This document shows, one piece after another, positions 34,478 to 64,000 of a stretch of 64,000 bases of DNA. The number at the start of each line of letters is the position of its first letter. Position 1 is the first letter of the stretch. Both the position numbers and the translations under genes were made by a program. The notes under the pieces were generated by a model. That model did no database searches. It was not told the origin of the DNA and worked only from the letters and a program-made list of their open reading frames with translations. The stretch lies in sequence record NC_106513.1. One strand, 5' to 3'. The stretch comes from Escherichia phage vB_EcoS_ESCO30.

Positions 34478-34488
34478 GTATTTAAGGT

Positions 34489-36161: not shown

Positions 36162-36223
36162 TTTTTGACACCTCCTAGTATATAGAAAATGTGTGTCTCT
36201 TTGATCACTCATCCATAACATAT

Positions 36224-36252: not shown

Positions 36253-36368
36253 GGGGTCTTTAAAAATTGCCCCCGGATTTTTAGTGGGGTCACAAATTTT
36301 GGTCCTCACCACTTATCTGCTACCCTTAAGTGCCCTATGATTTTCCCCTAAAAAGTTAAAAAATTTGA

Positions 36369-36397
36369 TTGCTTGAATGCTAAATTCTCTGTATAAT
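36369..36397 (+). promoter_or_regulatory. strong early promoter
   Basis: -35 TTGCTT 36369-36374, 17 bp, -10 TATAAT 36392-36397. Confidence 0.7.
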
Positions 36398-36427
36398 ATA
36401 TCTATAAATTTGAGAGAGGAACCAAAT

Positions 36428-36946
36428 ATGAATGTTGATGAGCTAACACAGCACCTCTTATCTAGGGGATTTGATACTGATAAATATCATTGCTGGTTAA
36501 GTCCGGAAGGATGGCTAACAGTCCCGTTGTATGATTTCTCTGGGATGTTGAGGGGCTATCAAACTTATAATCCTTCTGCTCCAAAAGGTCATGGTAAGTG
36601 CCCCCTTGAAGCTAAATACTTTACTTATTCTACCACCCAGTGTGTATGGGGACTAGAAACTCTCAATGGAGATGAAAAAGTAGTATTGATCGCTGAATCT
36701 GTATTTAAGGCAGTTGCGTTACATAACGCTGGTTATCCAGCCATAGCAATGTTGGGTTCTTCTCCAGGAAAAGCGTTATTAAAGCAACTAAAATTACTAC
36801 CTTTTAAATTGGTAGCTGTTGGTGATAATGATCCTGCTGGTGAAAAATTTGCTAGAAAATTAAACGGTTTTGTTTCTCCCGTAGATGTGGATGAGATGTC
36901 TACCGAAAACTTGAAAAATTTTCTTGCTATGAAGCTAAATTTCTAA
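36428..36946 (+). CDS. small TOPRIM-domain protein
   Basis: ATG 36428 after GAGAGAGGAA SD; TOPRIM-like Glu (VLIAES) and DxD (VGDNDPAG); track start 36377 lies inside promoter. Confidence 0.5.
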   Translation: MNVDELTQHLLSRGFDTDKYHCWLSPEGWLTVPLYDFSGMLRGYQTYNPSAPKGHGKCPLEAKYFTYSTTQCVWGLETLNGDEKVVLIAESVFKAVALHNAGYPAIAMLGSSPGKALLKQLKLLPFKLVAVGDNDPAGEKFARKLNGFVSPVDVDEMSTENLKNFLAMKLNF

Positions 36947-36967
36947 TATAATATATCTTATAAATTC

Positions 36968-37056
36968 GGAAGAATAGCATAACGGTATTGCAGCAGATTG
37001 CTAATCTGTCGGTTTGAAATATAGCCTTGTGGGTTCGATTCCCACTTCTTCCGCCA
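36968..37056 (+). tRNA. tRNA-Ser (anticodon GCT), class II
   Basis: Acceptor GGAAGAA/TTCTTCC perfect, anticodon loop TTGCTAA, long variable arm, T-arm GTGGG-TTCGATT-CCCAC, CCA encoded. Confidence 0.75.
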
Positions 37057-37062
37057 GATTTT

Positions 37063-37140
37063 GGTTCTCAAGCTCATATGGTATGAGCACCCGGCTCATA
37101 ACCGGAAGGTACGTAGGTTCGAATCCTCGGGGAGCCACCA
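37063..37140 (+). tRNA. tRNA with anticodon CAT (Met or Ile-lysidine type)
   Basis: Acceptor GGTTCTC/GGGAGCC, D-stem GCTC/GAGC, anticodon loop CTCATAA, T-loop TTCGAAT but T-stem only 3 bp; CCA encoded. Confidence 0.5.
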
Positions 37141-37160
37141 ACTTAATTAGGGGATTACAA

Positions 37161-37349
37161 GTGGAATTATACATAGTTTATGTTGTGTTCATTCAAGATA
37201 GAGAATACCCTGATGAATATAAAAAAGGATATAGATTAGCCAGAGCTACCTCTGAAGCCCAAGCTATGGATAAAGTGGCAGATTATATGATTACGGTAGA
37301 AAACGTACACTATATCGACTACCTTGAAGCCTCAAAAGTAATTGACTAG
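37161..37349 (+). CDS. hypothetical protein (GTG start)
   Basis: Track ORF 37014-37349 overlaps two tRNAs; trimmed to GTG 37161 after AGGGGA SD. Confidence 0.3.
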   Translation: MELYIVYVVFIQDREYPDEYKKGYRLARATSEAQAMDKVADYMITVENVHYIDYLEASKVID

Positions 37350-37358
37350 GGAGACTAT

Positions 37359-37544
37359 ATGTCTAAGTTTCAAGAACTCAAGCAAGAGCTAGAAGAATGT
37401 GCCTGCCCTGAATGTCTGGGGATTGGAGAAAGTTCTGATGCAGAAGCAGGAGATACTTTTTGCAATATCTGGGTTTGCCCAAATTGCAATGGTACAGGTA
37501 TTAATCCTAACTGTGGTATTTCTCTAGATATTGAAAGAGGATAA
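37359..37544 (+). CDS. hypothetical zinc-ribbon protein
   Basis: CACPECLG...CPNCNGTG Cys pairs; 61 aa. Confidence 0.45.
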   Translation: MSKFQELKQELEECACPECLGIGESSDAEAGDTFCNIWVCPNCNGTGINPNCGISLDIERG

Positions 37545-37646
37545 TACCTGTGAAACTAAAAGATTATTATATTGGTTGGTTTGTGGGACTAGTAGTAGGA
37601 TTTTCACTAGGCTATAATATGTATCAACTAATAAACTGATTACACG

Positions 37647-37723
37647 GGGGGTGTAATCGAATTGGCATAGGTACTGGACTTAAAATTCAGGTTTTGTGGG
37701 TTCGAATCCCACCACCCCTACCA
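37647..37723 (+). tRNA. tRNA, anticodon TAA (Leu-like), type uncertain
   Basis: Acceptor GGGGGTG/CACCCCT, anticodon stem CTGGA/TTCAG with loop CTTAAAA, T-arm GTGGG-TTCGAAT-CCCAC, CCA encoded; D-stem only 3 bp. Confidence 0.5.
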
Positions 37724-37738
37724 AATTAAGGAAATAAG

Positions 37739-37906
37739 ATGTATAGACATCCACCTCCGCCAACACGTCGTTCTAGGGAAGTCATCCTTATGGAATTGAC
37801 TAAAAACTTCAAGGCAACTCTTGAAGATAGAGATCTAGGCACGGATGAAGATATTGATTTTATTTGTAGACTATTAAAGATGAAACTGGAGAAACAACAT
37901 GGCTAA
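37739..37906 (+). CDS. hypothetical small protein
   Basis: 55-aa ORF below track cut-off, AAGGAAATAAG SD. Confidence 0.35.
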   Translation: MYRHPPPPTRRSREVILMELTKNFKATLEDRDLGTDEDIDFICRLLKMKLEKQHG

Positions 37907-38105
37907 TCCTGAAATTACCGCACAACGTTTCATGCTTAAAGGCATGATTGCTGAGGCAGGTATAACTCAAGAGGTTGCAGATTTTCATAAGCAATTTCTT
38001 GACATTATAACTCTAGCTAAAGAGACTGGAGAAAAAGAACATGGAGCGGCAATTATGGCTATATCTCTTATTAGTCTAGACTTGGCTGAAGAATCTGGAG
38101 TTTAG
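37899..38105 (+). CDS. hypothetical protein
   Basis: 68-aa ORF. Confidence 0.45.
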   Translation: MANPEITAQRFMLKGMIAEAGITQEVADFHKQFLDIITLAKETGEKEHGAAIMAISLISLDLAEESGV

Positions 38106-38135
38106 CTCCTCCAAACAGAATTTTTAAAAATGTAC

Positions 38136-38165
38136 TTGCCTTTTGCTTTAAATTTCTGATATAAT
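38136..38165 (+). promoter_or_regulatory. early promoter
   Basis: -35 TTGCCT 38136-38141, 18 bp, -10 TATAAT 38160-38165. Confidence 0.6.
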
Positions 38166-38195
38166 AGTTATATAAATTGATGAAGGAGTTAACGA

Positions 38196-38471
38196 ATGCA
38201 AAATCGTGTTATAGCAGCTGGTATTGAAAGTGCAATCTGTAAATCCTGGGAAGGCTGGGAAGGTGAGATTGAATGGCTTTATTTCTATGATGTAGAACTT
38301 CTGCCGGAAGTTAAAGCTAAATGTGTTAAAGCTGGCATGGCTCCGGATGCAAAAGCTGATATTGATATTTCAATGTCTGAACTTAAAGGTCGTGTAGTTA
38401 CCGTTAGTAATGAGGGGGAAGAAGTTTTCGAACTTCCATTCTCCTTAACTGTCACTCCTAAGTTCGACTAA
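38196..38471 (+). CDS. hypothetical protein
   Basis: 91-aa ORF with AAGGAG SD. Confidence 0.5.
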   Translation: MQNRVIAAGIESAICKSWEGWEGEIEWLYFYDVELLPEVKAKCVKAGMAPDAKADIDISMSELKGRVVTVSNEGEEVFELPFSLTVTPKFD

Positions 38472-38507
38472 CTAATACAGCACTGAGCAAGTTCTTTAAA
38501 ATTTGAC

Positions 38508-38536
38508 TTGCTCAGTGCCTTAAAACTTGGTATAAT
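38508..38536 (+). promoter_or_regulatory. early promoter upstream of tRNA-Tyr, overlapped by 12-bp inverted repeat
   Basis: -35 TTGCTC 38508-38513, 17 bp, -10 TATAAT 38531-38536; palindrome GCACTGAGCAAG...CTTGCTCAGTGC spans 38479-38518. Confidence 0.6.
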
Positions 38537-38601
38537 AGTTATCTAATTTGGAAACATATTTAAAAGTGTTTAAATTAGAATTTTTGAATACTTCTAAATA
38601 T

Positions 38602-38689
38602 GGGCGTTTATTCCGTAAGTGGTAGCGGAGGGGATTGTAAATCCCTGGTCATTGCGACTCGAGTGGTTCGACTCCATTAACGCCCACCA
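38602..38689 (+). tRNA. tRNA-Tyr (anticodon GTA), class II
   Basis: Acceptor GGGCGTT/AACGCCC perfect, anticodon stem GGGGA/TCCCT with loop TTGTAAA, variable arm hairpin, T-arm AGTGG-TTCGACT-CCATT, CCA encoded. Confidence 0.75.
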
Positions 38690-38706
38690 AATTAAAGGTA
38701 AAGGAT

Positions 38707-39198
38707 ATGTATATTGATCGGATAATTCAAGAAGCTGCAAATAGAGGTATTATACAGTTGGGTTCACCAGCTGATATAAATAAAGATCTAATATTAGAAA
38801 GCCTCACATTTGGTACAGCTAACTTTGGTCGCGATAGTAATCGTCGATATAGCTTGAAGTTATCTGCACTATCTTTTATCAAGTATAACAAAAGTATTGG
38901 AGAAAAATCCAGCTGTGGTTTTATTTACGCAATAACTAACCCAGCTTGGGATAACTATGTAAAAATTGGTATGTCTTCTGATCCTAAAACAAGATTAAGA
39001 AATTACCAAACCTATTCTCCTTTACGTGATTATAAGTTAATACATTGGTCATTTTGGTTTAATGCTAGAGAAGCGGAGAAAATGCTTCATAATAGCTTTC
39101 CTGAACGGCTTAATGAATGGGTAGTGTTAGACAGAGGTGTAGACGAAATACTTTCCGAGTTTAACAATTTATCCAATAAGCAATTTAAGTCCTGTTAG
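38707..39198 (+). CDS. T5orf172/GIY-YIG-like putative endonuclease
   Basis: GFIYAITNPAWDNYVKIGMSSDPKTRL motif; 3' end overlaps tRNA-Glu. Confidence 0.6.
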   Translation: MYIDRIIQEAANRGIIQLGSPADINKDLILESLTFGTANFGRDSNRRYSLKLSALSFIKYNKSIGEKSSCGFIYAITNPAWDNYVKIGMSSDPKTRLRNYQTYSPLRDYKLIHWSFWFNAREAEKMLHNSFPERLNEWVVLDRGVDEILSEFNNLSNKQFKSC

Positions 39199-39265
39199 AC
39201 AAACTGGTAAAGTCACTACCCTTTCAAGGTAGGATTTGCGGGTTCGATCCCCGCACAGGACGCCA
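39189..39265 (+). tRNA. tRNA-Glu (anticodon TTC)
   Basis: Acceptor GTCCTGT/ACAGGAC perfect, anticodon stem CTACC/GGTAG with loop CTTTCAA, T-arm GCGGG-TTCGATC-CCCGC, CCA encoded. Confidence 0.75.
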
Positions 39266-39273
39266 ATTTCTGC

Positions 39274-39350
39274 ATTCCTAGAGTGTTACTGGACAGCATG
39301 TCGGTCTCCAAAACCGTACGGTCTAGGTTCGAGTCCTAGTAGGTTTGCCA
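39274..39350 (+). tRNA. tRNA-Trp (anticodon CCA), acceptor stem imperfect
   Basis: Anticodon stem-loop TCGGT-CTCCAAA-ACCGT, T-arm CTAGG-TTCGAGT-CCTAG, CCA encoded; acceptor has two U-U mismatches. Confidence 0.5.
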
Positions 39351-39356
39351 AAATTT

Positions 39357-39431
39357 GCACCTTTAGCTGAGATGGATTAGCGCTTGCCTGAAGAGCTTGA
39401 GAGGTTCGTTCGATTCGAACAGGGTGCACCA
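39357..39431 (+). tRNA. tRNA-Phe (anticodon GAA), anticodon stem imperfect
   Basis: Acceptor GCACCTT/AGGGTGC, anticodon loop CTGAAGA, T-arm GTTCG-TTCGATT-CGAAC, CCA encoded. Confidence 0.55.
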
Positions 39432-39433
39432 AT

Positions 39434-39721
39434 TTGAAGGAGATGCTGATGCATCCTGAAAACTTCTTTATTTACTGCGCGGATAAGTCGCTGAAACGTA
39501 GAATTAATAAAGTCTATCATTATCGTGCTAGTCAACAGCCTTATGTATATGCTTTTGACGGTGATCACATCCCACTAGAACAATTATCTTGTGATTACAT
39601 GATATTGAAGAACTTTGACGAGACGAAGATCTCAAGCGTTCATAATCGACAGAATCCTTTAACGTGGAAATATAAGAGGAAAAAGAAAGGCATCAAATTC
39701 TTAAAAAATGTAGTTGCTTAG
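39434..39721 (+). CDS. hypothetical protein
   Basis: 95-aa ORF directly after tRNA-Phe. Confidence 0.45.
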   Translation: MKEMLMHPENFFIYCADKSLKRRINKVYHYRASQQPYVYAFDGDHIPLEQLSCDYMILKNFDETKISSVHNRQNPLTWKYKRKKKGIKFLKNVVA

Positions 39722-39742
39722 TTTCCAAAAGTTCTGTATAAT
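39714..39742 (+). promoter_or_regulatory. strong early promoter
   Basis: -35 TTGCTT 39714-39719, 17 bp, -10 TATAAT 39737-39742. Confidence 0.7.
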
Positions 39743-39771
39743 AATTACATAAATTGAACTGGAGAAGCGAC

Positions 39772-39996
39772 ATGACAGAACAAGAATTGAATGAACGTAA
39801 GTTGGTAATGCTTCGCTTACTAAATATTTTCTCTGGTATGGATGGTGGAATTGACTTTGTTCATCTACGTTCTTTCGTAGAAGAAGCCGAGGGCGAATCT
39901 ATCACTAAAATCCTTAAACACATGGGATTACTTTTAGACGCTGCTAATGTGGCTACTGAATATAAACTAGAAGATCTACCAGAGCGTGTTAAATGA
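39772..39996 (+). CDS. hypothetical protein
   Basis: ATG 39772 after GGAGAAG SD (track start 39754). Confidence 0.5.
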   Translation: MTEQELNERKLVMLRLLNIFSGMDGGIDFVHLRSFVEEAEGESITKILKHMGLLLDAANVATEYKLEDLPERVK

Positions 39997-40184
39997 AACG
40001 ATTAGTTAGATTTAAGTGTTGTGGTTCCGAGCACATTTTCACACATCTTCGTGAATTTAAAATGTGCGATTGTGGTAAATCAGGCTATGACTCAGGAGAT
40101 GGGTTCTACACCCGTACTCTAGGGAACTTCAATGATCTAGAATTTGAAGATCTCGAAAAACAAGATAAATCGACCGTTGGCTGA
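39993..40184 (+). CDS. hypothetical Cys-containing protein
   Basis: 63-aa ORF with CCGS...CDCG Cys pairs. Confidence 0.45.
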   Translation: MKRLVRFKCCGSEHIFTHLREFKMCDCGKSGYDSGDGFYTRTLGNFNDLEFEDLEKQDKSTVG

Positions 40185-40246
40185 ATGGCTTAGGCGAAGG
40201 ATTGCAAATCCTTTTTATGTGAGTTCAAATCTCATGCGGTCGTCCA
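40171..40246 (+). tRNA. tRNA-Cys (anticodon GCA)
   Basis: Acceptor CGACCGT/GCGGTCG, anticodon stem AAGGA/TCCTT with loop TTGCAAA, T-arm GTGAG-TTCAAAT-CTCAT, CCA encoded. Confidence 0.7.
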
Positions 40247-40398
40247 ATTTGCTGAAAGAATTGTTAAATCAATTCAGGCACGCGTAGGAACACTGTCTCC
40301 GTAATTGAAAGATGAGGCACGGTTTGGAGAGGTATGCCGCTACACGCTACGGTGCTAACTCCGTCTAGGTGAAAATCCTAGTCAGCAATATAAATTTA

Positions 40399-40481
40399 GG
40401 GTCGTTAGCCAAGCGGTTTGGCGGTGGACTGTTAATCCATGTCGAAAGACAACGTAGGTTCGAATCCTACACGGCCCGCCA
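40399..40481 (+). tRNA. tRNA-Asn (anticodon GTT) with extended variable arm
   Basis: Acceptor GGGTCGT/ACGGCCC, D-stem GCCA/TGGC, anticodon loop CTGTTAA, T-arm GTAGG-TTCGAAT-CCTAC, CCA encoded. Confidence 0.65.
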
Positions 40482-40583
40482 AATTCTGTGTAGAGTTAAG
40501 TAAACCGGTAGCCAACCAGCTATCATTGCTGACATCGAATTCAGCCACAGATACCATTTTCATTAATAATTGAGGAAACAAGC

Positions 40584-40769
40584 ATGTCCAAGAATGTAAT
40601 TGCACAGCTAGAAGTTCATCGTGATAGCACTATCAACAATATTGAAGTTGAGAAGAAATACATCGAAGAACTTAAACATGATATACTAGTAAGTCTCAAT
40701 CGTCTTAATGTACGAAAAGAGTTTCTTAAAGAACTTAATGCAGCTATTGAAAAACTCAAAGCTGAGTAA
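40584..40769 (+). CDS. hypothetical protein
   Basis: 61-aa ORF with GAGGAAA SD. Confidence 0.45.
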   Translation: MSKNVIAQLEVHRDSTINNIEVEKKYIEELKHDILVSLNRLNVRKEFLKELNAAIEKLKAE

Positions 40770-40778
40770 ATAAATTAT

Positions 40779-40855
40779 GCGACCGGGGCTGGCTTGGTAA
40801 TGGTACTCCCCTGTCACGGGAGGGAATGTGGGTTCAAATCCCATCGGTCGCGCCA
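40779..40855 (+). tRNA. tRNA-Asp (anticodon GTC)
   Basis: Acceptor GCGACCG/CGGTCGC perfect, anticodon stem CTCCC/GGGAG with loop CTGTCAC, T-arm GTGGG-TTCAAAT-CCCAT, CCA encoded. Confidence 0.75.
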
Positions 40856-40880
40856 AATTAATTTAGTATGAGAATATACT

Positions 40881-41228
40881 ATGCGTAATGCCAAAGAAGA
40901 GTTGTTACTTGCCTTAAAAAATACTAATTCTGAAGTTAAGTGTATTAAAATAGAATTCGGGTATTATGGGGATAAAAAAGTTTGGGTATTACCTTTAGGT
41001 TATACAGAAGAAGACATTGAGGATTTTCTTAATAACCTAGACTTTGAATATGATTCTGGATATGGTGGACAATTACTTTATGGTAATGTATGGTTTGCCG
41101 ACGGAACTTGGCTAGAACGTGGGGAATATGACGGTGCTGAGTGGTGGGAATACAAGGCCACCCCGGCAATCCCAGAGGAATGCCGAACAATTAATGGTGA
41201 AGTAGACAATACTTTACGGTTAAACTAA
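40881..41228 (+). CDS. hypothetical protein
   Basis: 115-aa ORF. Confidence 0.5.
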   Translation: MRNAKEELLLALKNTNSEVKCIKIEFGYYGDKKVWVLPLGYTEEDIEDFLNNLDFEYDSGYGGQLLYGNVWFADGTWLERGEYDGAEWWEYKATPAIPEECRTINGEVDNTLRLN

Positions 41229-41236
41229 TAAAATTT

Positions 41237-41312
41237 CAGTGCGTAGCGCAGTTGGTAGCGTGGGATCCTTGGATGATTCGGGTCGCAGGTTCGAGTCCTG
41301 CCGCACTGACCA
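41237..41312 (+). tRNA. tRNA-Pro (anticodon TGG)
   Basis: Acceptor CAGTGCG/CGCACTG perfect, D-stem GCGC/GCGT, anticodon loop CTTGGAT, T-arm GCAGG-TTCGAGT-CCTGC, CCA encoded. Confidence 0.8.
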
Positions 41313-41318
41313 AACAAT

Positions 41319-41394
41319 TGCGGGTGGGAGGCATAGAGTTCTTCTTAGTCTCATAAGCTAAGTAAGTCCAGGGCAGTACTGGAACCCGCTACCA
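41319..41394 (+). tRNA. tRNA-like gene with anticodon CAT and non-canonical T-loop
   Basis: Anticodon stem-loop TTAGT-CTCATAA-GCTAA, T-arm TCCAG-GGCAGTA-CTGGA (no TTC), CCA encoded; one U-U mismatch at acceptor end. Confidence 0.45.
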
Positions 41395-41412
41395 ATTTCA
41401 AGAAAAACGCAG

Positions 41413-41441
41413 TTGCTTAATGCTTAATTTCTTGTTATAAT
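41413..41441 (+). promoter_or_regulatory. strong early promoter
   Basis: -35 TTGCTT 41413-41418, 17 bp, -10 TATAAT 41436-41441. Confidence 0.7.
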
Positions 41442-41679
41442 ATTTATATAAATTGATGAGGAGAAATCCTCATCATAGTTCACTAAGGTATTAGCTCGAC
41501 CTAGGACTGGCTGCCAAAAAGCACGATCCCTACTATTTGGGAGAAGTTCTAGATTAGTCCACTAGATTCAGCGGCAACTGAATAGTGTATTGGGTTTGCG
41601 AGATGACGCAGTTCCTTCCGCTCGAAGCGAAGGTGCTGTAGTTACGCCGAGCTAATAGCCTTAGTAAACTAAAGAATTT

Positions 41680-41754
41680 GGGCGAATAGTGTCAGCGGGA
41701 GCACACCAGACTTGCAATCTGGTAGGGAGGGTTCGAGTCCCTCTTTGTCCACCA
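41680..41754 (+). tRNA. tRNA-Ala (anticodon TGC)
   Basis: Acceptor GGGCGAA/TTTGTCC, anticodon stem CCAGA/TCTGG with loop CTTGCAA, T-arm GAGGG-TTCGAGT-CCCTC, CCA encoded. Confidence 0.75.
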
Positions 41755-41759
41755 AATTC

Positions 41760-41844
41760 GGGGCTATGCTGGAACTGGTAGACAATACGGCCTTAGATTC
41801 CGTAGCTTAAATGCGTGGGAGTTCGAGTCTCCCTAGCCCCACCA
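41760..41844 (+). tRNA. tRNA-Leu (anticodon TAG), class II
   Basis: Acceptor GGGGCTA/TAGCCCC perfect, anticodon stem TACGG/CCGTA around ...CTTAGAT..., long variable arm, T-arm GGGAG-TTCGAGT-CTCCC, CCA encoded. Confidence 0.65.
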
Positions 41845-41861
41845 ACTCATAGGATTTATGT

Positions 41862-42446
41862 ATGCAGTTTGTACCAGTAAAAGATGCACCAGGGTATTTA
41901 GTAAATGAGGCGGGGGATGTGTTCTCTACATTTACTAATAAAGTTTTATCAAGATATATAGTTGATGGATACCCTGCTGTAAAATTACAGATAAATGGTA
42001 AACAAACCTCTGTACTTATACACCGAATTATTTCTCATGTATTTGGGGACTTATATAATCTATTTGACCCTGAATTAGAGGTAGATCATAAGGATAGAGA
42101 TAGACTGAATCTATCTAAAGATAATCTTCAAGTCCTATCAAAAATAGAACATCAGAGGAAAACTAATAAAGATAATGGGTGGTCTGACAGTAGAGTACCT
42201 TGCCCCCTATGTGGGAGTCTAATGCTTCAGAGATCTGTAACATGTACAAATTGTAAGCCAAAACCTACAGGAAGGTTGATAAAACCAGAATTGTCTTTAG
42301 ACGACATAACTGAAAAGGTTTTATTAATGGGGTGGGTTAAGGCAGCTAAAGAGTTAGAAGTATCAGAGTCCACTTTGCGCAGGAGGTATACTAAACTAAC
42401 TGGATTAAGCCCAAAAGTATTAACAGAACAACGGAAAAGCAAATAG
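41862..42446 (+). CDS. HNH endonuclease
   Basis: HRIISHVFG...EVDHKDRDRLNLSKDNL HNH motif; 3' end overlaps tRNA-Ser 5' end. Confidence 0.7.
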   Translation: MQFVPVKDAPGYLVNEAGDVFSTFTNKVLSRYIVDGYPAVKLQINGKQTSVLIHRIISHVFGDLYNLFDPELEVDHKDRDRLNLSKDNLQVLSKIEHQRKTNKDNGWSDSRVPCPLCGSLMLQRSVTCTNCKPKPTGRLIKPELSLDDITEKVLLMGWVKAAKELEVSESTLRRRYTKLTGLSPKVLTEQRKSK

Positions 42447-42526
42447 ACTGGCGACTAAACCCGATTGGAAATCGGTTGAGTAATAGCAATATTGCCTTAT
42501 GGGTTCAACTCCCATCTTTTCCGCCA
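42433..42526 (+). tRNA. tRNA-Ser (anticodon GGA), class II
   Basis: Acceptor GGAAAAG/CTTTTCC perfect, anticodon stem CCGA/TCGG with loop TTGGAAA, long variable arm, T-arm ATGGG-TTCAACT-CCCAT, CCA encoded. Confidence 0.65.
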
Positions 42527-42533
42527 AACAAAT

Positions 42534-42623
42534 GGAAGATAGGACGTAGTGGTACGTAACTGGTCTTGAAAACCAGCCCGCTGTAGTGATACGGTGATGG
42601 TTCGACTCCATTATCTTCTGCCA
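42534..42623 (+). tRNA. tRNA-Ser (anticodon TGA), class II
   Basis: Acceptor GGAAGAT/ATCTTCT, D-stem ACGT/ACGT, anticodon stem CTGGT/ACCAG with loop CTTGAAA, long variable arm, T-arm GATGG-TTCGACT-CCATT, CCA encoded. Confidence 0.7.
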
Positions 42624-42639
42624 ACTTATAGGGTAATAT

Positions 42640-42822
42640 ATGTCTTTAACGAAAACTGTGAAGGTTACACTAACTGATGGCACAGAGTTTAGTGCACAAA
42701 TAACCTTACTAGAAGACGGTTATTGGGAAGTATATCTTCCACACGTTAATTCTACTGGTAGAGGATGGACTCAACAACAGGCTATTGTTGATGCTTTAAA
42801 TGAGGCTTCCGCTGGTTTATAA
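42640..42822 (+). CDS. hypothetical protein
   Basis: 60-aa ORF. Confidence 0.45.
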   Translation: MSLTKTVKVTLTDGTEFSAQITLLEDGYWEVYLPHVNSTGRGWTQQQAIVDALNEASAGL

Positions 42823-43189
42823 AAATTCTTGGAATATGCCGGAATTGGTAGACGGGACTGCCCAATAGGTTTACTAGGAACATCCACTCCTAGAAATATA
42901 CCTTAAAAGCGGTTGAGTTAAATGGTCTAACTCATGAAGGTTCAAGTCCTTCTGCTTCTTGATACATCTATGGCTCAAAGTGTAACGGTGCTATTTGATG
43001 CTCTTGGAAAGACTTTCCCGACAGGCGTTCGGGGGTAAGCTTCTGAGGCTAGAATAGAAGAGTTTCTGAGAGCCGCCACAATTGAAAATTCGTACTCGTC
43101 TTGAGCTGCGTGCAATAGGAGATAACTTGATTAGTATTCTAGAACATGCTAATTGAGGATGGTTTCGCTAACCCTGCGAGTTTTCAATT

Positions 43190-43266
43190 GTGGCTATATC
43201 ATAATTGGTTAATGATCCTGATTGTGAATCAGGCCTATGTGGATTCGAATTCCACTAGCCACCCCA
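43190..43266 (+). tRNA. tRNA-His (anticodon GTG)
   Basis: Acceptor GTGGCTA/TAGCCAC perfect, D-stem TCAT/ATGA, anticodon stem CCTGA/TCAGG with loop TTGTGAA, T-arm GTGGA-TTCGAAT-TCCAC, CCA encoded. Confidence 0.8.
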
Positions 43267-43291
43267 AATTAACTTAAATAGGAAATAAAAT

Positions 43292-43489
43292 ATGGCTGAT
43301 TTCTGCAAACAATGCTCCATTGATATGTGGGGCAGAGATACTGGTGATCTTTCTGGTTTGATTACAGAAGCCGAAGTCAAAGAAGGTTATGGTGCAGTTG
43401 TGATTTGCGAAGGATGCGGAGTTATTCGAGTAGATCATGAAGGCAAACGTTTAGAAGAACCGGAAAATTTAGGAGAAACAAATGAGTAA
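43292..43489 (+). CDS. hypothetical Cys-containing protein
   Basis: 65-aa ORF with CKQC...CEGC pairs. Confidence 0.45.
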   Translation: MADFCKQCSIDMWGRDTGDLSGLITEAEVKEGYGAVVICEGCGVIRVDHEGKRLEEPENLGETNE

Positions 43490-43718
43490 TGCTTTAATTA
43501 GTGAAATTATGTTAACACGTCTTGCAGAACTGCAAACTCTTCGAGATGAATCTCAGAATAACTTAGCCTATCATAAACAGATGGTAGATACTCTTACTAC
43601 TCGTATTGAAACTTACGAGCGTGATATTGCAGCATTACAAGCTCTTTTCTCTGTATCAGCACCAGATACATTAGAACAGCCTGCCGTATCTCAGCCGGTA
43701 GAAACAGCATCTAGTTAA
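43482..43718 (+). CDS. hypothetical protein
   Basis: 78-aa ORF. Confidence 0.45.
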   Translation: MSNALISEIMLTRLAELQTLRDESQNNLAYHKQMVDTLTTRIETYERDIAALQALFSVSAPDTLEQPAVSQPVETASS

Positions 43719-43727
43719 TAGCATTCT

Positions 43728-43803
43728 TGGAGTGTAGATCAATTGGCAGATCGTCGGCCTCTGACTCCGAAGGTTCCTGGTTCGATCCCAGGCACTCCAG
43801 CCA
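43728..43803 (+). tRNA. tRNA-Gln (anticodon CTG)
   Basis: Acceptor TGGAGTG/CACTCCA perfect, D-stem GATC/GATC, anticodon loop CTCTGAC, T-arm CCTGG-TTCGATC-CCAGG, CCA encoded. Confidence 0.7.
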
Positions 43804-43809
43804 AACAAT

Positions 43810-43885
43810 TGGAGAGTAGTGTAACGGTTAGCACAACGGCCTTTGACTCCGTTAATGGTAGGTTCGATTCCTCCTTCTCCAGCCA
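43810..43885 (+). tRNA. tRNA-Gln (anticodon TTG)
   Basis: Acceptor TGGAGAG/TTCTCCA, anticodon loop CTTTGAC, same architecture as adjacent Gln tRNA, T-loop TTCGATT, CCA encoded. Confidence 0.7.
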
Positions 43886-43893
43886 AACAATAA

Positions 43894-43969
43894 GCGGTTA
43901 AGCACACGGGTTGTGTCGCAGGCCTTCCAAGCCTCGCTGAGTAGGGTTCGATTCCCTCTAGCCGCTCCA
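43894..43969 (+). tRNA. tRNA-Gly (anticodon TCC)
   Basis: Acceptor GCGGTTA/TAGCCGC, D-stem CACA/TGTG, anticodon stem AGGC/GCCT with loop CTTCCAA, T-loop TTCGATT, CCA encoded. Confidence 0.7.
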
Positions 43970-43985
43970 ACTTTAAGGAAACGTT

Positions 43986-44207
43986 ATGCACGTTTTTGAG
44001 TTTCGTAATAAAAGTACCAATAAACGAGTTATTGTTATTGGGGAAACATATCGAGCATATGAACAAACTGACGGCTCTGTTATCTTGAATGATGAGAAAG
44101 GGGGTTTTAGCTTTTATCCAGAAGAAACGTATGAGGGGTTTCGTACTAAGTTTCTTTTACCAGACTGGCTAGCAGTAGCCGAGCAACGAGAATCCGAAGA
44201 TGGCTGA
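43986..44207 (+). CDS. hypothetical protein
   Basis: 73-aa ORF after tRNA-Gly. Confidence 0.45.
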   Translation: MHVFEFRNKSTNKRVIVIGETYRAYEQTDGSVILNDEKGGFSFYPEETYEGFRTKFLLPDWLAVAEQRESEDG

Positions 44208-44364
44208 TAACCTAAAATTAAGAGTTGACAAACAAAAGAAATACGTTGAGGTTGAATTAGGCGAAGAACGCTTAAAGCTAACTTTCGAGTTTCTTCAGCA
44301 GTTGGCTATGACAGTTATGACTGATAAGTCTCCTGTTATTGAAAAAGAAATCCCGTTGAAATAA
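44200..44364 (+). CDS. hypothetical small protein
   Basis: 54-aa ORF below track cut-off; ATGGCTGA overlap with upstream stop. Confidence 0.3.
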   Translation: MADNLKLRVDKQKKYVEVELGEERLKLTFEFLQQLAMTVMTDKSPVIEKEIPLK

Positions 44365-44374
44365 CGGGATTATC

Positions 44375-44449
44375 GCTCCTAAAGCATTGCTGGCGATGCA
44401 GCTGCCTTGTAAGCATCTGAACCGGGTTCGATTCCTGGTGGGAGCACCA
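44375..44449 (+). tRNA. tRNA-Thr (anticodon TGT)
   Basis: Acceptor GCTCCTA/TGGGAGC, D-stem GCAT/ATGC, anticodon loop CTTGTAA, T-arm CCGGG-TTCGATT-CCTGG, CCA encoded. Confidence 0.75.
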
Positions 44450-44464
44450 AATTTAAAAATTCAT

Positions 44465-44493
44465 TTGCCTTCTCTCTTATTTCTTGTTATAAT
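44465..44493 (+). promoter_or_regulatory. early promoter
   Basis: -35 TTGCCT 44465-44470, 17 bp, -10 TATAAT 44488-44493. Confidence 0.65.
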
Positions 44494-44523
44494 ATTTATA
44501 TAAGTTAATGAGAGGGAAACCAA

Positions 44524-44817
44524 ATGAAACGTTATCTTTCTGTTGTGTTCCAAACTGGTGGTCAACGCTATACCTATGAATTTCCTAGCTCTTGGAAGAT
44601 CAAAGAAGGTGATCAAGTAGTAGTGTTAACACCGCGTGAGGGTTTCAAGGTAGTAACGGTTAAGCAAGTATTTCCAAAAGAGCATGAACCAGCTAAAGGC
44701 ATTCGCTATAAGATGATTCATGGTGTAGTTCGTCAAGTACCACGAGTGGAGGTCGAAATCAAAGTAGATAAAGATGGTAAACTTAAATATACCTCTTGCT
44801 TAGACGAGTTGCTATAA
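44524..44817 (+). CDS. hypothetical protein
   Basis: 97-aa ORF with GAGAGGGAAA SD. Confidence 0.5.
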   Translation: MKRYLSVVFQTGGQRYTYEFPSSWKIKEGDQVVVLTPREGFKVVTVKQVFPKEHEPAKGIRYKMIHGVVRQVPRVEVEIKVDKDGKLKYTSCLDELL

Positions 44818-45023
44818 TGAGGATTACTTTTACAGAAAAGATCATGAGTAATGGTGTTATGATCATTACCGCATGGGATGGCAATCAGTGGTGTAGTGTT
44901 TCAGGTATTAAGCCTGAAAAACAAACACTAGAAAATATCTCAAAGATTAAGCGAAGAATGGCAGAACGTGCACGACTTCCAGGTGCACCTAGAAATGGCA
45001 AACGTTCTGCTGTAAAATGTTAA
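44817..45023 (+). CDS. hypothetical protein
   Basis: ATG 44817 overlapping upstream stop (TAATG); track start 44796. Confidence 0.4.
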   Translation: MRITFTEKIMSNGVMIITAWDGNQWCSVSGIKPEKQTLENISKIKRRMAERARLPGAPRNGKRSAVKC

Positions 45024-45024
45024 T

Positions 45025-45101
45025 GCTTCGGTAGCTTAGCGATCTAAAGCACTCGGCTGATAACCGAGAGATCGGGGGTTTAAATCCCTCCCGGAGTACC
45101 A
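45025..45101 (+). tRNA. tRNA-Ile (anticodon GAT)
   Basis: Acceptor GCTTCGG/CCGGAGT, D-stem GCTT/AAGC, anticodon stem CTCGG/CCGAG with loop CTGATAA, T-arm GGGGG-TTTAAAT-CCCTC, CCA encoded. Confidence 0.7.
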
Positions 45102-45197
45102 AATTTAGGAATTAAGACTATGCGTCCAGGAAAGTTTAAAAAAGCTAATTGGACTAAAGAGTATAAAGAATACTTACTTAGCCTAATAAAACATAAT

Positions 45198-45270
45198 AGT
45201 TAGTTGGCAGAGTGGTTATGCACCTCCTTCATACGGAGCGACTACAGTGGTTCAAATCCACTACTAACTA
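45198..45270 (+). tRNA. tRNA with anticodon CAT (Met or Ile-lysidine type), no encoded CCA
   Basis: Acceptor AGTTAGT/ACTAACT perfect, D-stem GCA/TGC, anticodon loop TTCATAC, T-arm AGTGG-TTCAAAT-CCACT. Confidence 0.6.
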
Positions 45271-45310
45271 TCATTAAAAGAGCTAGAGATAGCTAACTTT
45301 AGGAGCAGCT

Positions 45311-61090: not shown

Positions 61091-61275
61091 TGGAAACTCT
61101 TTTTCTTTTAATGCTCGTAGGTTCGTTAGTAGTTATATTAGCACTTCTATTAATCTGTAGTATTCTTAATAAGGAGAACCTAGAACTAAAGTGTGAGAAC
61201 CAAATCCTTAATCGTGAACTCAAACAATATAATCTAGCAGCCCATAAACTGTTAGACAAACTGGAGAATAAATAA
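61090..61275 (+). CDS. hypothetical membrane protein
   Basis: N-terminal TM helix. Confidence 0.4.
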   Translation: METLFLLMLVGSLVVILALLLICSILNKENLELKCENQILNRELKQYNLAAHKLLDKLENK

Positions 61276-61877
61276 TGTTTACACAACAACCTATTCAAGT
61301 AGTACCAGACCATGAACTGAACACATGGGATTATAGCTTTAAAGATTTAACTGCTACTGTACAATTCAAATCTATGAAGCTAACCTTTGCACACACTAAT
61401 ATTAGAGCATGTAAAGGTTTTGAAGGTAGGCTCAACAACGCTCGTGAGATTTTTGGCAAGGCTCGCATTCCAGCTGATAACCTTATTAACGCATTAATAG
61501 ATGCTGGCTATAAACTCGTGAAGACTGAGGTGAACCGTCCTAGTACTCCTGTGACTGTTGGAGGTTCCTGGACCAAAAGTGGTATCGCATTTAATCCTAA
61601 AATAACGTCGGAAATGCACAATGTTCCATGCGGTGGCACTATAGAAAATAGTTCCTCATATCGAGTTGGTGAAGATTATGGACCTTCTGCACAGTTGAAA
61701 CATACTCAAGAAGCTTTTGAATCTGATATGCGAAGCGTAGCACCTGCGGATGCTGGAGTTTCTAGGAGTTCTGTTTGTACTATTCATTTTAATAATCCTA
61801 GTAAACATGGAAGTTTAGAAGATGCTATTATGGAGGCATTGGGAGCTGCTATTAACGAGAGTAAAAAAGATCAATAA
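61275..61877 (+). CDS. hypothetical protein
   Basis: 200-aa ORF. Confidence 0.5.
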   Translation: MFTQQPIQVVPDHELNTWDYSFKDLTATVQFKSMKLTFAHTNIRACKGFEGRLNNAREIFGKARIPADNLINALIDAGYKLVKTEVNRPSTPVTVGGSWTKSGIAFNPKITSEMHNVPCGGTIENSSSYRVGEDYGPSAQLKHTQEAFESDMRSVAPADAGVSRSSVCTIHFNNPSKHGSLEDAIMEALGAAINESKKDQ

Positions 61878-63058: not shown

Positions 63059-63087
63059 TTGACGTTCATCCATCTGCATGTTATAAT
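63059..63087 (+). promoter_or_regulatory. near-consensus sigma70 promoter with no ORF downstream
   Basis: -35 TTGACG 63059-63064, 17 bp, -10 TATAAT 63082-63087; about 200 nt downstream has no SD/ORF. Confidence 0.55.
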
Positions 63088-63356
63088 AATCACATAGATT
63101 AAAAACAACTCTTGTTTTGAACTCTAGGGGCGATGATTATTACACGAGACTTCGTTAACTCTTTGCGACCGAGCAACAGGGGTATGACAGTCGAGGACTT
63201 ACGTAATTAATCACGCGCCCCACGAGTAAGCACACATGTAATGGGGGCTACTTTACTTTTAATTTACCTTATAATATTTAAAGGCAATATCTGTGTTCAA
63301 GATGATACACCTGTTGCCGCTCTTCTGCTAGGATGGCACAACACTTTCTTCTAGAC

Positions 63357-64000
63357 TCCTAAGTTTCTAGGAATACTCACTCTTTCTAGGGCGGTTCTCC
63401 TAAGTTTCTAGGAACATATACTAGGCGGTTAATACAGGGCGGTTATAGGGAGGGCGGTTATTTCTAGGAGACATTTTTTGAAAACACATTCCCAGAAATT
63501 ACTGTCGGATTTGCACACTGACAAGAGTTTAAAAACTGGTCGGATTTGCACAAACGCCTAAGTTTTTAGGAACTCTTACTCTCCTGAAAATAGCAGCATT
63601 ATTTCGGGCCGAAGGCCCATGATTGCCTGAGTTTTTAGAGCCACAAGAATTTTCACTTGTCAAGCTATTTTGCCCCGTTTTGCTAATAAAATTTTACTTT
63701 TTCTGCACCTATCTCAAATCTTCCCAAATTATCTCAACTCTTCCCCAAAATCCCCGCAAATCAGGTGCTCCGCACCAATCCTGCGCCCACATCCTTCTAG
63801 CCTCCCAAATTTTTCTCGCTCTCTCATCTTCTCCTCAAACCTATACAATCACACACCCTCTCATCGAAGTCACAAAAATCTTGTCGGATTCGCACATCCC
63901 ACCACATGTCGGATTTGCACATACTCTAGCTAATTCCACAGGATTGATGCGCAGCATCGGATTGCTGGAGTTTTTGGGAAAATTCATTGTCGGATTTGCA
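63357..64000. repeat. non-coding array of short direct repeats (continues beyond window end)
   Basis: TGTCGGATTTGCACA x5 (63503, 63540, 63881 variant, 63908, 63986), CCTAAGTTTCTAGGAA x3-4 (63358, 63399, 63557, degenerate 63626), GGGCGGTT x4 (63389-63460), GGGCCGAAGGCCC palindrome, pyrimidine-rich tract 63700-63870. Confidence 0.8.

What the first reader, a model, noticed from the sequence alone, without database searches (positions are those of the whole stretch)
63290..64000. Dense array of three short direct-repeat families plus a pyrimidine-rich tract at the window end
At least five copies of TGTCGGATTTGCACA, three to four of CCTAAGTTTCTAGGAA, four of GGGCGGTT, a GGGCCGAAGGCCC palindrome and a ~170 nt C/T-rich strand-asymmetric tract lie in ~700 bp with no credible ORF. 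This looks like clustered protein-binding sites. In T5-like phages the early region abuts the terminal-repeat boundary and injection stop signal, which is a plausible identity.
Basis: partly seen in the sequence, partly recalled or inferred. Interest (0 to 1): 0.7.

Follow-up and report, generated by a model that had tools for sequence, protein, structure and literature searches.

The report
T5-type terminal-repeat boundary repeat region
This stretch is the well-conserved, non-coding junction between the early genes and the inner end of the left terminal repeat of a T5-like phage: a repeat block already annotated in phage T5, next to (not containing) the presumed injection-stop signal, and whose function has never been tested.

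Summary

The window is a Tequintavirus (94.5% identical to phage VEc33), reverse-complemented relative to the deposited records. The segment is the right-hand part of T5 "Repeat Region 3":
- TGTCGGATTTGCACA is T5's annotated "direct repeat D" (DRD).
- The 63710-63748 pair is "direct repeat A" copies 2 and 3.

Five independent terminal-repeat annotations (T5, Bf23, Sw2, KpGranit, phiR2-01) place the repeat's inner end at window 63638. So 63638-64000 is terminal repeat and 63290-63637 is unique DNA.

The proposed injection-stop core (paired DnaA boxes, DRC/DRE repeats, the 7.9% nick) lies 110-450 bp beyond the window end.

The same module recurs in Klebsiella and Vibrio T5-like phages, although most of the sequence is unalignable. 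Its parts are a one-orientation DRD array straddling the terminus, a GC hairpin about 25 bp outside it, and a C-rich/G-poor tract starting at it.

My best inference, unproven, is a terminus-forming (terminase recognition and cutting) module rather than the stop signal itself.

Verdict: already known as a feature, with moderate interest.

The parts
63283..63350 (.). Nearly invariant non-coding block (TTCAAGATGATACACCTGTTGCCGCTCWTCTGCTAGGATGGCACAACACTTTC). It lies between the terminator of the upstream structured RNA and the repeats. Function unknown.
   Evidence: Conserved from the window to T5 and Sw2 while the flanks diverge. Not found in Klebsiella phage Roth49.
63358..63373 (+). CCTAAGTTTCTAGGAA unit, copy 1 (imperfect palindrome, core TTTCTAGGAA).
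   Evidence: This copy is evolutionarily labile: it is replaced in K15 and VEc33.
63399..63414 (+). CCTAAGTTTCTAGGAA unit, copy 2.
   Evidence: In Bf23 and T5 the same motif sits here in the opposite orientation (TTCCTAGAAACT), which argues for a DNA-level, roughly palindromic site.
63389..63459 (+). GGGCGGTT family: 63389-63396, 63423-63430 (AGGCGGTT), 63437-63444 and 63452-63459. On the canonical strand it reads AACCGCCC.
   Evidence: The pair at -201/-186 from the terminus is invariant in the E. coli/Salmonella phages. It lies at -184/-168 in a further lineage and at -451/-422 in Klebsiella phages, and is absent in Vibrio VF16. The core matches the conserved left-terminus element TAGTCTNNTWACCGCCCC.
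63503..63517 (+). DRD copy on the unique side, equivalent to T5 "direct repeat D" copy 8.
   Evidence: Position -134 from the terminus in all E. coli/Salmonella phages examined.
63538..63552 (+). DRD copy on the unique side (GGTCGGATTTGCACA), equivalent to T5 DRD copy 7.
   Evidence: Position -99.
63557..63572 (+). CCTAAGTTTTTAGGAA unit, copy 3.
   Evidence: Position -82.
63606..63618 (.). GC-rich hairpin/palindrome GGGCC(GAA)GGCCC, 20-32 bp outside the terminal repeat.
   Evidence: Klebsiella phages have CACGGTG(TGT)CACCGTG at the same position and with the same 3-nt loop, but a different sequence. No T-run follows on either strand, and the terminator scan does not call it.
63630..63638 (+). 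AGTTTTTAG, ending at 63638, the innermost base of the left terminal repeat. This base corresponds to the physical right end of virion DNA, so it marks the terminase cut position in a concatemer.
   Evidence: The TR ends of T5 (10139), Bf23 (9743), Sw2 (9816), KpGranit (10100) and phiR2-01 (9901) all align to this nucleotide. The motif belongs to the AGTTTYTAG family, of which 4 of the window's 9 copies lie in this segment.
63638..63709 (.). Conserved terminal block of the repeat. It includes the palindrome ACAAG(N8)CTTGT (63643-63660) and TTGTCAA (63657-63663; TTGACAA on the canonical strand).
   Evidence: This is the only stretch of the segment that blastn still detects in Klebsiella Sugarlandvirus phages (query 343-420). 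TTGACA(A) lies 12-20 bp inside the right terminus in T5, Klebsiella phages, VF16 and IMG contig 2595698685.
63680..63860 (+). C-rich, G-poor tract (C 38%, G 6%). It contains T5 "direct repeat A" copies 3 and 2 (63710-63728 and 63730-63748).
   Evidence: The asymmetry starts at the terminus and runs about 200 bp into the repeat, on the same strand, in the window, Klebsiella Roth49, Vibrio VF16 and Yersinia phiR2-01. The sequences themselves are not alignable.
63882..63896 (+). DRD copy inside the terminal repeat (TGTCGGATTCGCACA), equivalent to T5 DRD copy 6.
   Evidence: Position +245.
63907..63921 (+). DRD copy inside the terminal repeat, equivalent to T5 DRD copy 5.
   Evidence: Position +270.
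63988..64000 (+). DRD copy cut by the window end, equivalent to T5 DRD copy 4. In relatives three more copies follow, then the 7.9% nick site and the injection-stop core.
63741..63981 (.). Imperfect 43-nt inverted repeat (63741-63783 and 63939-63981; 33 of 43 positions complementary) bracketing two DRD copies.
   Evidence: Conservation in relatives was not quantified.

Best explanation
**Identity (near certain).** The segment is the non-coding junction between the leftward early genes and the inner (right) end of the left terminal repeat of a T5-like phage. It is the right-hand two-thirds of T5 "Repeat Region 3". The terminal repeat ends at 63638. In a replicative concatemer this is where terminase must cut to make the right end of the virion DNA.

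**Mechanism (inferred, not shown).** The repeats are cis-acting sites of the terminus-forming machinery:
- The one-orientation DRD array has 2-4 copies outside and 5-7 inside the repeat. I propose it binds an oligomeric phage protein. The best candidate is the small terminase subunit (the T5 sciB gene product).
- The bound protein would position the large terminase subunit on the conserved block ...AGTTTTTAG|AGCCACAAG....
- The GC hairpin about 25 bp outside the cut and the GGGCGGTT/ACCGCCC units are accessory elements. An ACCGCCC unit also sits about 35 bp inside the left terminus.
- The C-rich/G-poor tract just inside the end is a composition-dependent feature of that end.

The injection-stop core lies beyond the window. 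This segment adjoins it and enters the cell at the start of second-step transfer.
For: **Identity**
- 94.5% identical to VEc33 and 444 T5-like records match. A 22-gene tRNA cluster is present.
- The DRD and DRA units are identical to those annotated in AY587007.
- Davison describes Repeat Region 3 as running 270 bp into unique DNA.

**Position of the terminus**
- Five independently annotated TR ends fall on one nucleotide.
- A sixth lineage has its contig end at the homologous junction.
- The discordant annotations (Sugarland, Stubb, AY692264) fall exactly on the nick consensus instead.

**Layout centred on the terminus across lineages**

| Lineage | DRD positions relative to the terminus |
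|---|---|
| E. coli/Salmonella phages | -134, -99 and +245 to +454 |
| Klebsiella phages | -212 to -131 and +117 to +334 |
| Vibrio VF16 | 3 copies outside, 7 inside |
| Vibrio phi 3 | -20 to +236 |

- In every lineage the copies are on one strand only and occur nowhere else in 14-64 kb.
- DRD arrays occur only on 108-122 kb T5-like contigs in IMG/VR.
- The only sequence blastn still detects in Klebsiella phages is the 78 bp at the terminus.
- The hairpin is conserved in position and shape but not in sequence.
- The C-rich tract starts at the terminus in four lineages.

**Other support**
- An ACCGCCC-containing element is conserved 27-45 bp from the left terminus in six phages.
- A small-terminase candidate exists: SciB matches PHROG 3802.
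- The region lies between convergent operons, so promoters are not needed to explain its conservation.
Against: - No protein binding, cutting or packaging assay exists for any of these elements.
- The two cut sites share no obvious motif.
- The array spans about 740 bp, which is larger than known pac or cos sites.
- The innermost DRD abuts the first-step-transfer boundary and nick in every lineage. That fits an injection role just as well.
- Proteus phage Stubb has no clear DRD array although it has both TerS and A2 homologues.
- TerS and A2 homologues are co-distributed, so the binder cannot be told apart by presence or absence.
- Packaging direction in T5 is unresolved. One paper says the left end is packed first, against the general last-in-first-out rule.
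- The window holds only one copy of the repeat, so its own terminus is placed by homology only.
Confidence: 0.45

Rival explanations
1. The DRD array is part of the two-step injection device. It is the first DNA that must move after the pause. Pre-early proteins made during the pause (A2, a DNA-binding dimer, together with A1) would bind the one-orientation array to release or ratchet the DNA for second-step transfer. Alternatively the array helps to hold the DNA at the stop.
For: - The innermost DRD lies 3-4 bp from the 7.9% nick and the first-step-transfer boundary in E. coli, Klebsiella and Vibrio phages.
- The AY692264 "injection stop signal" feature covers the inner DRDs.
- Davison counts the nine DRDs among the three main repeat kinds of the candidate stop region.
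- A2 falls in a PHROG family annotated as DNA-binding protein and is conserved wherever the array is.
- A single orientation suits a directional process.
Against: - The layout is centred on the repeat end, not on the stop point, and 2-4 copies lie outside the repeat.
- During the pause this DNA should still be in the tail or capsid, out of reach of cytoplasmic proteins (inference from the shear point).
- Stubb has A2 but no clear array.
Confidence: 0.25
2. The hairpin and the C-rich tract insulate transcription. They would stop early-region transcripts (window + strand) from running into the repeat against the convergent pre-early operon. The hairpin would act as a terminator and the C-rich/G-poor RNA as a Rho-loading (rut) site. 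This can hold together with either reading of the repeats.
For: - The tract has 38% C and 6% G over about 180 nt on the strand that early read-through transcripts would carry. This strand bias is conserved in four lineages where the sequence is not.
- The flanking operons are convergent.
- The Sw2 record annotates the hairpin as a terminator.
Against: - No T-run follows the hairpin on either strand, and the scan does not call it a terminator.
- The upstream structured RNA has its own terminator at about 63262, and no + strand promoter is predicted between it and the tract. Little transcription should therefore arrive.
- This reading does not explain why the tract starts exactly at the terminus, and it says nothing about the repeat families.
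Confidence: 0.15
3. The DRD units are weak DnaA boxes or sites for another host factor. They would extend the DnaA-box cluster of the stop region, as the first reader suggested testing by EMSA with DnaA or IHF.
For: - ATTTGCACA matches 8 of 9 positions of the relaxed DnaA consensus TTWTNCACA.
- True DnaA boxes lie about 200-300 bp further in.
Against: In 88 unique enteric, 19 Klebsiella and 10 Vibrio copies:
- The "N" position of the box is 100% G.
- Box position 1 is A, position 4 is T or C, and position 9 is C in Vibrio.
- TCGG, outside the box, is invariant in enteric phages but reads TAGA in VF16.
- In the same genomes the real boxes are perfect TTATCCACA.
Confidence: 0.07
4. The direct repeats are iterons of a phage replication origin.
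For: Many direct repeats in one orientation lie in a non-coding region near DnaA boxes.
Against: - Spacing is irregular (25-81 bp) in most lineages.
- There is no adjacent initiator gene and no obvious AT-rich unwinding element.
- Electron-microscopy studies cited by Davison place T5 origins near the genome centre.
Confidence: 0.03

Closest known systems
T5 "Repeat Region 3" with direct repeats D and A (GenBank AY587007, Wang et al. 2005; Heusterspreute et al. 1987; Davison, bioRxiv 10.1101/866236)
   Same: It is the same element. The DRD and DRA units are identical, in the same order, spacing and orientation, and the terminal-repeat end is at the homologous nucleotide.
   Different: - The window has 2 DRD copies on the unique side where T5 has 3.
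- The CCTAAG...TAGGAA copies differ in number and orientation between close relatives.
- The GGGCGGTT and CCTAAG families, the hairpin and the C-rich tract are not named features in the T5 record.
Injection stop signal core of T5: IRD'-spacer-IRC' with paired DnaA boxes, DRE/DRC repeats and the 7.9% nick
   Same: It is the adjacent part of the same non-coding block. One T5 record's "injection stop signal" feature overlaps window about 63713-64000.
   Different: None of the defining elements is inside the window. In relatives they lie at +469 to +760 from the terminus, while the window ends at +362.
Terminase recognition sites with repeated small-subunit boxes on both sides of the cut: SPP1 pacL-pacC-pacR and lambda cosQ-cosN-cosB (from established knowledge, not tested here)
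   Same: Short repeated motifs lie on both sides of a fixed cut site, and a conserved block sits at the cut itself.
   Different: - The region is about 740 bp, against about 200-300 bp.
- All copies are in one orientation.
- The genome has long exact terminal repeats rather than cohesive ends or headful packaging.
- Binding is unproven.
T7 concatemer junction: short-repeat arrays (SRL/SRR) next to the terminal repetition and a hairpin-forming inverted repeat implicated in end processing (Dunn & Studier 1983; Chung, Nardone & Hinkle 1990; recalled from memory, not tested here)
   Same: It is a phage with exact direct terminal repeats, arrays of short direct repeats beside the repeat, and a small palindrome next to a cut site.
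   Different: - The T7 repeat is 160 bp, against about 10 kb here.
- T7 arrays flank both ends of the repeat, whereas the DRD array is at the right end only.
- There is no sequence relationship.

Membership tests
T5-type LTR/unique junction (Repeat Region 3) | T5-like genome context: early genes reading toward the repeat, and a tRNA cluster | tested here: met
T5-type LTR/unique junction (Repeat Region 3) | DRD units (TGTGCAAATCCGACA on the canonical strand) in one orientation, plus DRA copies 2 and 3 | tested here: met
   Window copies correspond to T5 DRD 4-8 and DRA 2-3.
T5-type LTR/unique junction (Repeat Region 3) | The terminal-repeat end lies inside the block | tested here: met
   By homology only. 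Five annotated ends align to window 63638. The window holds one copy of the repeat, so its own terminus cannot be seen directly.
Injection stop signal core (Davison's definition) | IRD'-spacer-IRC' (131 bp) with paired DnaA or DnaA* boxes 3 bp apart | tested here: not met
   No DnaA-type box in the window segment. In relatives they lie at +614 to +760, beyond the window end at +362.
Injection stop signal core (Davison's definition) | Position just left of the first-step shear point and the 7.9% nick | tested here: not met
   The nick consensus GCGCAGG lies at +469 in relatives. Window 64000 corresponds to T5 9777, and the nick is at 9661-9668.
Injection stop signal core (Davison's definition) | cis-acting arrest of DNA transfer | not testable with these tools
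   Needs first-step-transfer assays on mutants.
DnaA-box cluster | Units conserved as TTWTNCACA | tested here: not met
   The conservation profile does not fit. The N position is invariant G, positions 1, 4 and 9 vary, and the invariant TCGG lies outside the box.
Terminase recognition (pac/cos-type) site | Contains the cut that makes a virion DNA end | tested here: met
   By homology to mapped ends.
Terminase recognition (pac/cos-type) site | Repeated sites bound by the small terminase subunit | not testable with these tools
   Repeats flank the cut and a TerS candidate exists. Binding is unknown.
Terminase recognition (pac/cos-type) site | Sufficient in cis for cutting and packaging | not testable with these tools
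   Needs a plasmid transduction or in vitro packaging assay.
Intrinsic terminator (for the 63606-63618 hairpin) | GC-rich stem directly followed by a T-run | tested here: not met
   Not called by the scan. No T-run within 2 nt on either strand in E. coli or Klebsiella phages.
Rho-dependent terminator (rut) (for 63680-63860) | A C-rich, G-poor stretch of at least about 80 nt on the transcribed strand | tested here: met
   C 38%, G 6%.
Rho-dependent terminator (rut) (for 63680-63860) | Transcription enters the tract and ends there in a Rho-dependent way | not testable with these tools
   No transcriptome was found. The upstream RNA has its own terminator.
Iteron-type replication origin | Regularly spaced iterons with an adjacent initiator gene and an AT-rich unwinding element | tested here: not met
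   Spacing is irregular at 25-81 bp. The flanking genes are hypothetical early and pre-early genes. Origins are reported near the genome centre.

The most novel reading that the evidence does not exclude
The DRD array, the ACCGCCC units, the position-conserved hairpin and the terminal block together form the so-far unidentified terminase recognition and terminal-repeat-processing site of long-terminal-repeat T5-like phages. The site would be bound by SciB, the small terminase subunit. The same complex would explain why the major 7.9% nick sits 3-4 bp from the innermost DRD, because nicking would be a side activity of terminase. This would link three old T5 puzzles in one cis module: the nicks, exact long terminal repeats, and the first-step-transfer boundary.
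Probability: 0.3. Interest if true: 0.6.

Novelty: already known. Interest (0 to 1): 0.35.

Why it matters
How T5 stops and restarts DNA injection has been open since the 1960s. How phages with about 10-kb exact terminal repeats recognise, cut and duplicate their ends is also open.

This segment is the cis DNA at the centre of both questions. Its main repeats have been annotated in T5 since 2005, but nobody has tested them.

The comparative map made here gives concrete, cheap targets for binding assays and for mutagenesis:
- the exact terminus nucleotide;
- a one-orientation DRD array straddling it, from E. coli phages to Vibrio phages;
- a structure-conserved hairpin;
- a composition-conserved tract;
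- a matching element at the left terminus.

The unique-side elements are present once per genome, which makes them the easiest to mutate.

The map also shows that some PhageTerm "repeat ends" in this family are really the major nick site. That matters for genome annotation.

Tried and rejected
- **Coding region:** rejected. The 87-aa ORF is frame-broken in close relatives, although several GenBank records annotate hypothetical proteins here.
- **Known RNA family:** no match.
- **DnaA boxes:** rejected from the conservation profile.
- **DRD as a general nick determinant:** rejected. T5 major nicks 2 and 3 have no DRD nearby. The extra DRD copies 10-12 lie in coding sequence, and copies 11 and 12 encode a VQILQ/VQIRQ peptide repeat.
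- **Hairpin as an intrinsic terminator:** rejected.
- **Shared cut-site motif at the two repeat boundaries:** none found.
- **Telling TerS from A2 as the binder by presence or absence across lineages:** uninformative, because both occur everywhere, including in Stubb.
- **TTGACA near the terminus as a promoter:** no usable -10 element, and not called by the scan.
- **Literature:** no functional data on DRD, on T5 terminase recognition, or on transcripts at the junction. Davison 2015 and four classical papers could not be retrieved.
- **Packaging direction:** could not be settled.
Full report

Yes. In 63290-64000 I find the following.
- TGTCGGATTTGCACA is exact at 63503 and 63907, has one mismatch at 63538 and 63882, and a fifth copy is cut by the window end at 63988-64000.
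- CCTAAGTTTCTAGGAA is exact at 63358 and 63399 and has one mismatch at 63557.
- GGGCGGTT occurs at 63389, 63437 and 63452, with AGGCGGTT at 63423.
- The palindrome GGGCC(GAA)GGCCC lies at 63606-63618.
- The tract 63680-63860 has 38% C, 31% T and only 6% G, against 19% C and 20% G window-wide.

All copies of each family are on the + strand. Within the 64-kb window the 15-mer and the 16-mer occur with 0-1 mismatch only here, and no shuffle reaches the observed counts. Four of the window's five GGCGGTT lie here.

The only sizeable ORF (63670-63933, TTG start) is interrupted by 1-nt deletions in the closest relatives. No Rfam family matches.

**2. What genome and what place?**

The segment matches 444 phage records, best VEc33 at 94.5%. 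All are T5-like Demerecviridae, and the match is on their minus strand at about 9.4-10.6 kb. The window carries a 22-gene tRNA cluster. So the window is a Tequintavirus read in reverse orientation.

T5's own record (AY587007) annotates nine copies of a 14-15-nt "direct repeat D" at 9672-10409. The record also annotates "direct repeat A" copies 2 and 3, which are the window's 63710-63748 pair.

Davison (bioRxiv 10.1101/866236) calls this block "Repeat Region 3". He notes that it runs 270 bp past the left terminal repeat into unique DNA, and lists the nine DRDs among its main repeats. He assigns them no function. The DRD sequence does not appear in any held paper.

**3. Where is the terminal-repeat end?**

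Alignment puts the annotated repeat ends on a single nucleotide, window 63638, the G of ...GAGTTTTTAG|AGCCACAAG.... The ends are:

| Phage | Annotated TR end | Method |
|---|---|---|
| T5 | 10139 | as annotated in AY587007 |
| Bf23 | 9743 | PhageTerm |
| Sw2 | 9816 | PhageTerm |
| KpGranit | 10100 | PhageTerm |
| phiR2-01 | 9901 | as annotated |

An IMG/VR genome of a further lineage has its contig end at the homologous junction. K15's annotation is 17 nt off.

The discordant "repeat ends" of Sugarland, Stubb and the Orsay T5 record fall exactly on the nick consensus. This is CCCTGCGC/GCGCAGG, published as R/GCGCRGG. They mark the major 7.9% nick, not the end.

Hence 63638-64000 is the innermost 363 bp of the repeat and 63290-63637 is unique DNA.

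Window 64000 corresponds to T5 9777. The following therefore lie 110-450 bp beyond the window:
- the nick (9661-9668);
- the DRC repeats (9468-9637);
- IRD'-spacer-IRC' with its DnaA boxes (9332-9462), which is the proposed stop-signal core.

The Orsay record's broad "injection stop signal" feature (9140-10144) overlaps window about 63713-64000.

**4. Anatomy relative to the terminus**

Coordinates are in window orientation; minus means the unique side.

| Position | Element |
|---|---|
| -281, -240, -82 | CCTAAG...TAGGAA units |
| -250, -216, -202, -187 | GGGCGGTT |
| -134, -99 | DRD |
| -32 to -20 | hairpin |
| 0 to +72 | conserved terminal block with TTGTCAA |
| +40 to +230 | C-rich tract |
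| +245, +270, +351 | DRD |
| +382, +408, +454 | DRD (in relatives, beyond the window) |
| +469 | nick |
| +614 to +760 | DnaA boxes |

 One AGTTTYTAG motif, the core of the second family, ends exactly at the terminus.

**5. Conservation beyond close relatives**

Klebsiella Sugarlandvirus phages share only about 78 bp with the segment by blastn, and that stretch is the terminal block. Even so, they have the same module:
- two AGGGCGGTT units;
- four tandem DRD-like units (27-bp period) outside the repeat;
- a hairpin at the same distance with a different sequence, CACGGTG(TGT)CACCGTG;
- a C-rich tract;
- five DRD units inside;
- the nick consensus, DRC-type repeats and DnaA boxes.

Vibrio phage VF16 (A1 protein 31% identical) has ten GGTGCAAAT-type units. 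All are on one strand, 7 inside and 3 outside its repeat end, and there are none elsewhere in 16 kb. Its perfect DnaA boxes lie further in.

Vibrio phage phi 3 has eleven TCGGTTTTGCACC units at -20 to +236 and the nick consensus at +258.

The C-rich/G-poor bias begins at the terminus in the window, Roth49, VF16 and phiR2-01.

In IMG/VR, multi-copy DRD hits occur only on 108-122 kb contigs.

Proteus phage Stubb is the exception. It has no clear DRD array and carries other repeats.

**6. What binds DRD?**

The conservation profile shows a unit of about 22 bp: an A-tract followed by TGTCGGATTYGCACA. T-T-G-C-A-C is invariant in all lineages. TCGG is invariant in the enteric and Klebsiella phages and present in phi 3, but reads TAGA in VF16. 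The last base is A in enteric phages and C in Vibrio phages.

As a DnaA box it fails. The free "N" position is always G, while positions 1, 4 and 9 vary. The lineage-specific drift favours a phage-encoded binder.

There are two conserved candidates. One is SciB, the gene upstream of the large terminase gene, which falls in a PHROG family annotated as small terminase subunit. sciA and sciB are the nicking genes. The other is the pre-early DNA-binding protein A2. Both are present in all lineages, so their distribution does not decide between them.

**7. A matching element at the other end**

The physical left end carries TAGTCTNNTWACCGCCCC about 27-45 bp from the terminus in T5, Bf23, Sw2, KpGranit, Stubb and VF16, and also in phi 3. 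Its core is the complement of the GGGCGGT family.

On the canonical strand, an ACCGCCC element therefore lies just to the right of both repeat boundaries. This resemblance is a lead, not a proof. The two cut sites themselves share no motif.

**8. Interpretation**

*Shown:*
- the identity of the region;
- the position of the repeat end, by homology;
- that the region is non-coding;
- deep conservation of an architecture centred on the terminus;
- that the stop-signal core is absent from the window.

*Inferred:* because the right repeat boundary must be cut by terminase in concatemers, and the conserved features are arranged around that nucleotide, the segment most likely serves terminus formation, with DRD as the small-terminase array. 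I give this about 0.35-0.4 for the mechanism. The 0.45 stated for the explanation as a whole includes the near-certain identity.

The main rival is a role for DRD in second-step transfer or the stop, at 0.25. It rests on the invariable contact of the array with the nick and the first-step boundary.

The C-rich tract has the composition of a Rho-loading site, but I cannot show transcription through it.

Packaging direction is unsettled in the literature I could read. The hypothesis does not depend on it.

**9. Novelty and score**

The feature is already known. It was sequenced in 1987, annotated in 2005 and reviewed in 2015 and 2020. The window's phage is a close relative of sequenced isolates.

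What this analysis adds:
- a terminus-centred map;
- its extension to Klebsiella and Vibrio lineages;
- rejection of the DnaA-box reading for DRD;
- the structure-conserved hairpin and the composition-conserved tract;
- the left-end counterpart;
- the annotation artefact at the nick.

Interest is moderate (0.35). The result would not surprise specialists, but it sharpens two old open questions into direct experiments.

Noticed in passing
window 63059-63262 (+): A near-consensus sigma-70 promoter (TTGACG-17-TATAAT with an extended TG, 63059-63087) lies right after the last early ORF. It drives a structured RNA of about 170 nt: a 5' hairpin, a long rod, and a GGGGG hairpin with a U-tract terminator. 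The promoter and the first transcribed bases are conserved as far as Klebsiella phages. The body exists in at least 5 unalignable sequence classes that fold alike (z-scores -2.7 to -7.1), and 9 of 31 consensus pairs show compensatory changes. There is no Rfam match and no mention in the papers searched.
   Followed up: partly
window 63283-63350: A 68-nt non-coding block is almost invariant across Tequintavirus and Epseptimavirus but absent from Klebsiella phages. Function unknown.
   Followed up: partly
L005:27-47, L136, L138, L137, L012:26-44, L013:27-46, L139:38-54 (physical left ends): A conserved left-terminus element, TAGTCTNNTWACCGCCCC, lies about 27-45 bp from the left end of the genome in seven T5-like phages from several genera. 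Its core is the complement of the finding's GGGCGGT units.
   Followed up: partly
L011 (Sugarland 10138), L012 (Stubb 11415), L007 (AY692264 9749): These annotated terminal-repeat ends coincide exactly with the T5 nick consensus (CCCTGCGC/GCGCAGG), not with the conserved terminus. PhageTerm-type calls in this family can mistake the major nick for the repeat end.
   Followed up: yes
window 61606-61620 (+), inside ORF 61275-61877; T5 12073-12086 and 79019-79048: DRD-like units occur inside genes. The window has TCGGAAATGCACA at the position of T5 "DRD copy 10" (ORF019), and several relatives have an exact copy about 1.8 kb from the array. T5 copies 11 and 12 are tandem within exo2 and encode VQILQ/VQIRQ. 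It is unclear whether they are functional or coincidental.
   Followed up: partly
window 63741-63783 and 63939-63981: An imperfect 43-nt inverted repeat (33 of 43 positions) within the terminal repeat brackets two DRD copies. The second arm differs in T5, Bf23 and VEc33.
   Followed up: partly
L012:11560-12510 (Proteus phage Stubb): There is no DRD array. Instead there is a purine-rich tract, GGATTTGCAG x3 in the opposite orientation, a different repeat (AGAATGGTGG/GGGAATAATAGAATGG), and a probable true repeat end near 12170 (CTTGACAAAAATTTACGGGGGTGGC).
   Followed up: partly
L139 (Vibrio phage phi 3) around 7769: The annotated repeat end falls inside a 17-bp-period tandem DRD array and between two copies of a 33-nt duplicated segment. 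The boundary there may be approximate.
   Followed up: no
window 32787-45272 (+): A cluster of 22 tRNA genes, as expected for a T5-like phage.
   Followed up: no
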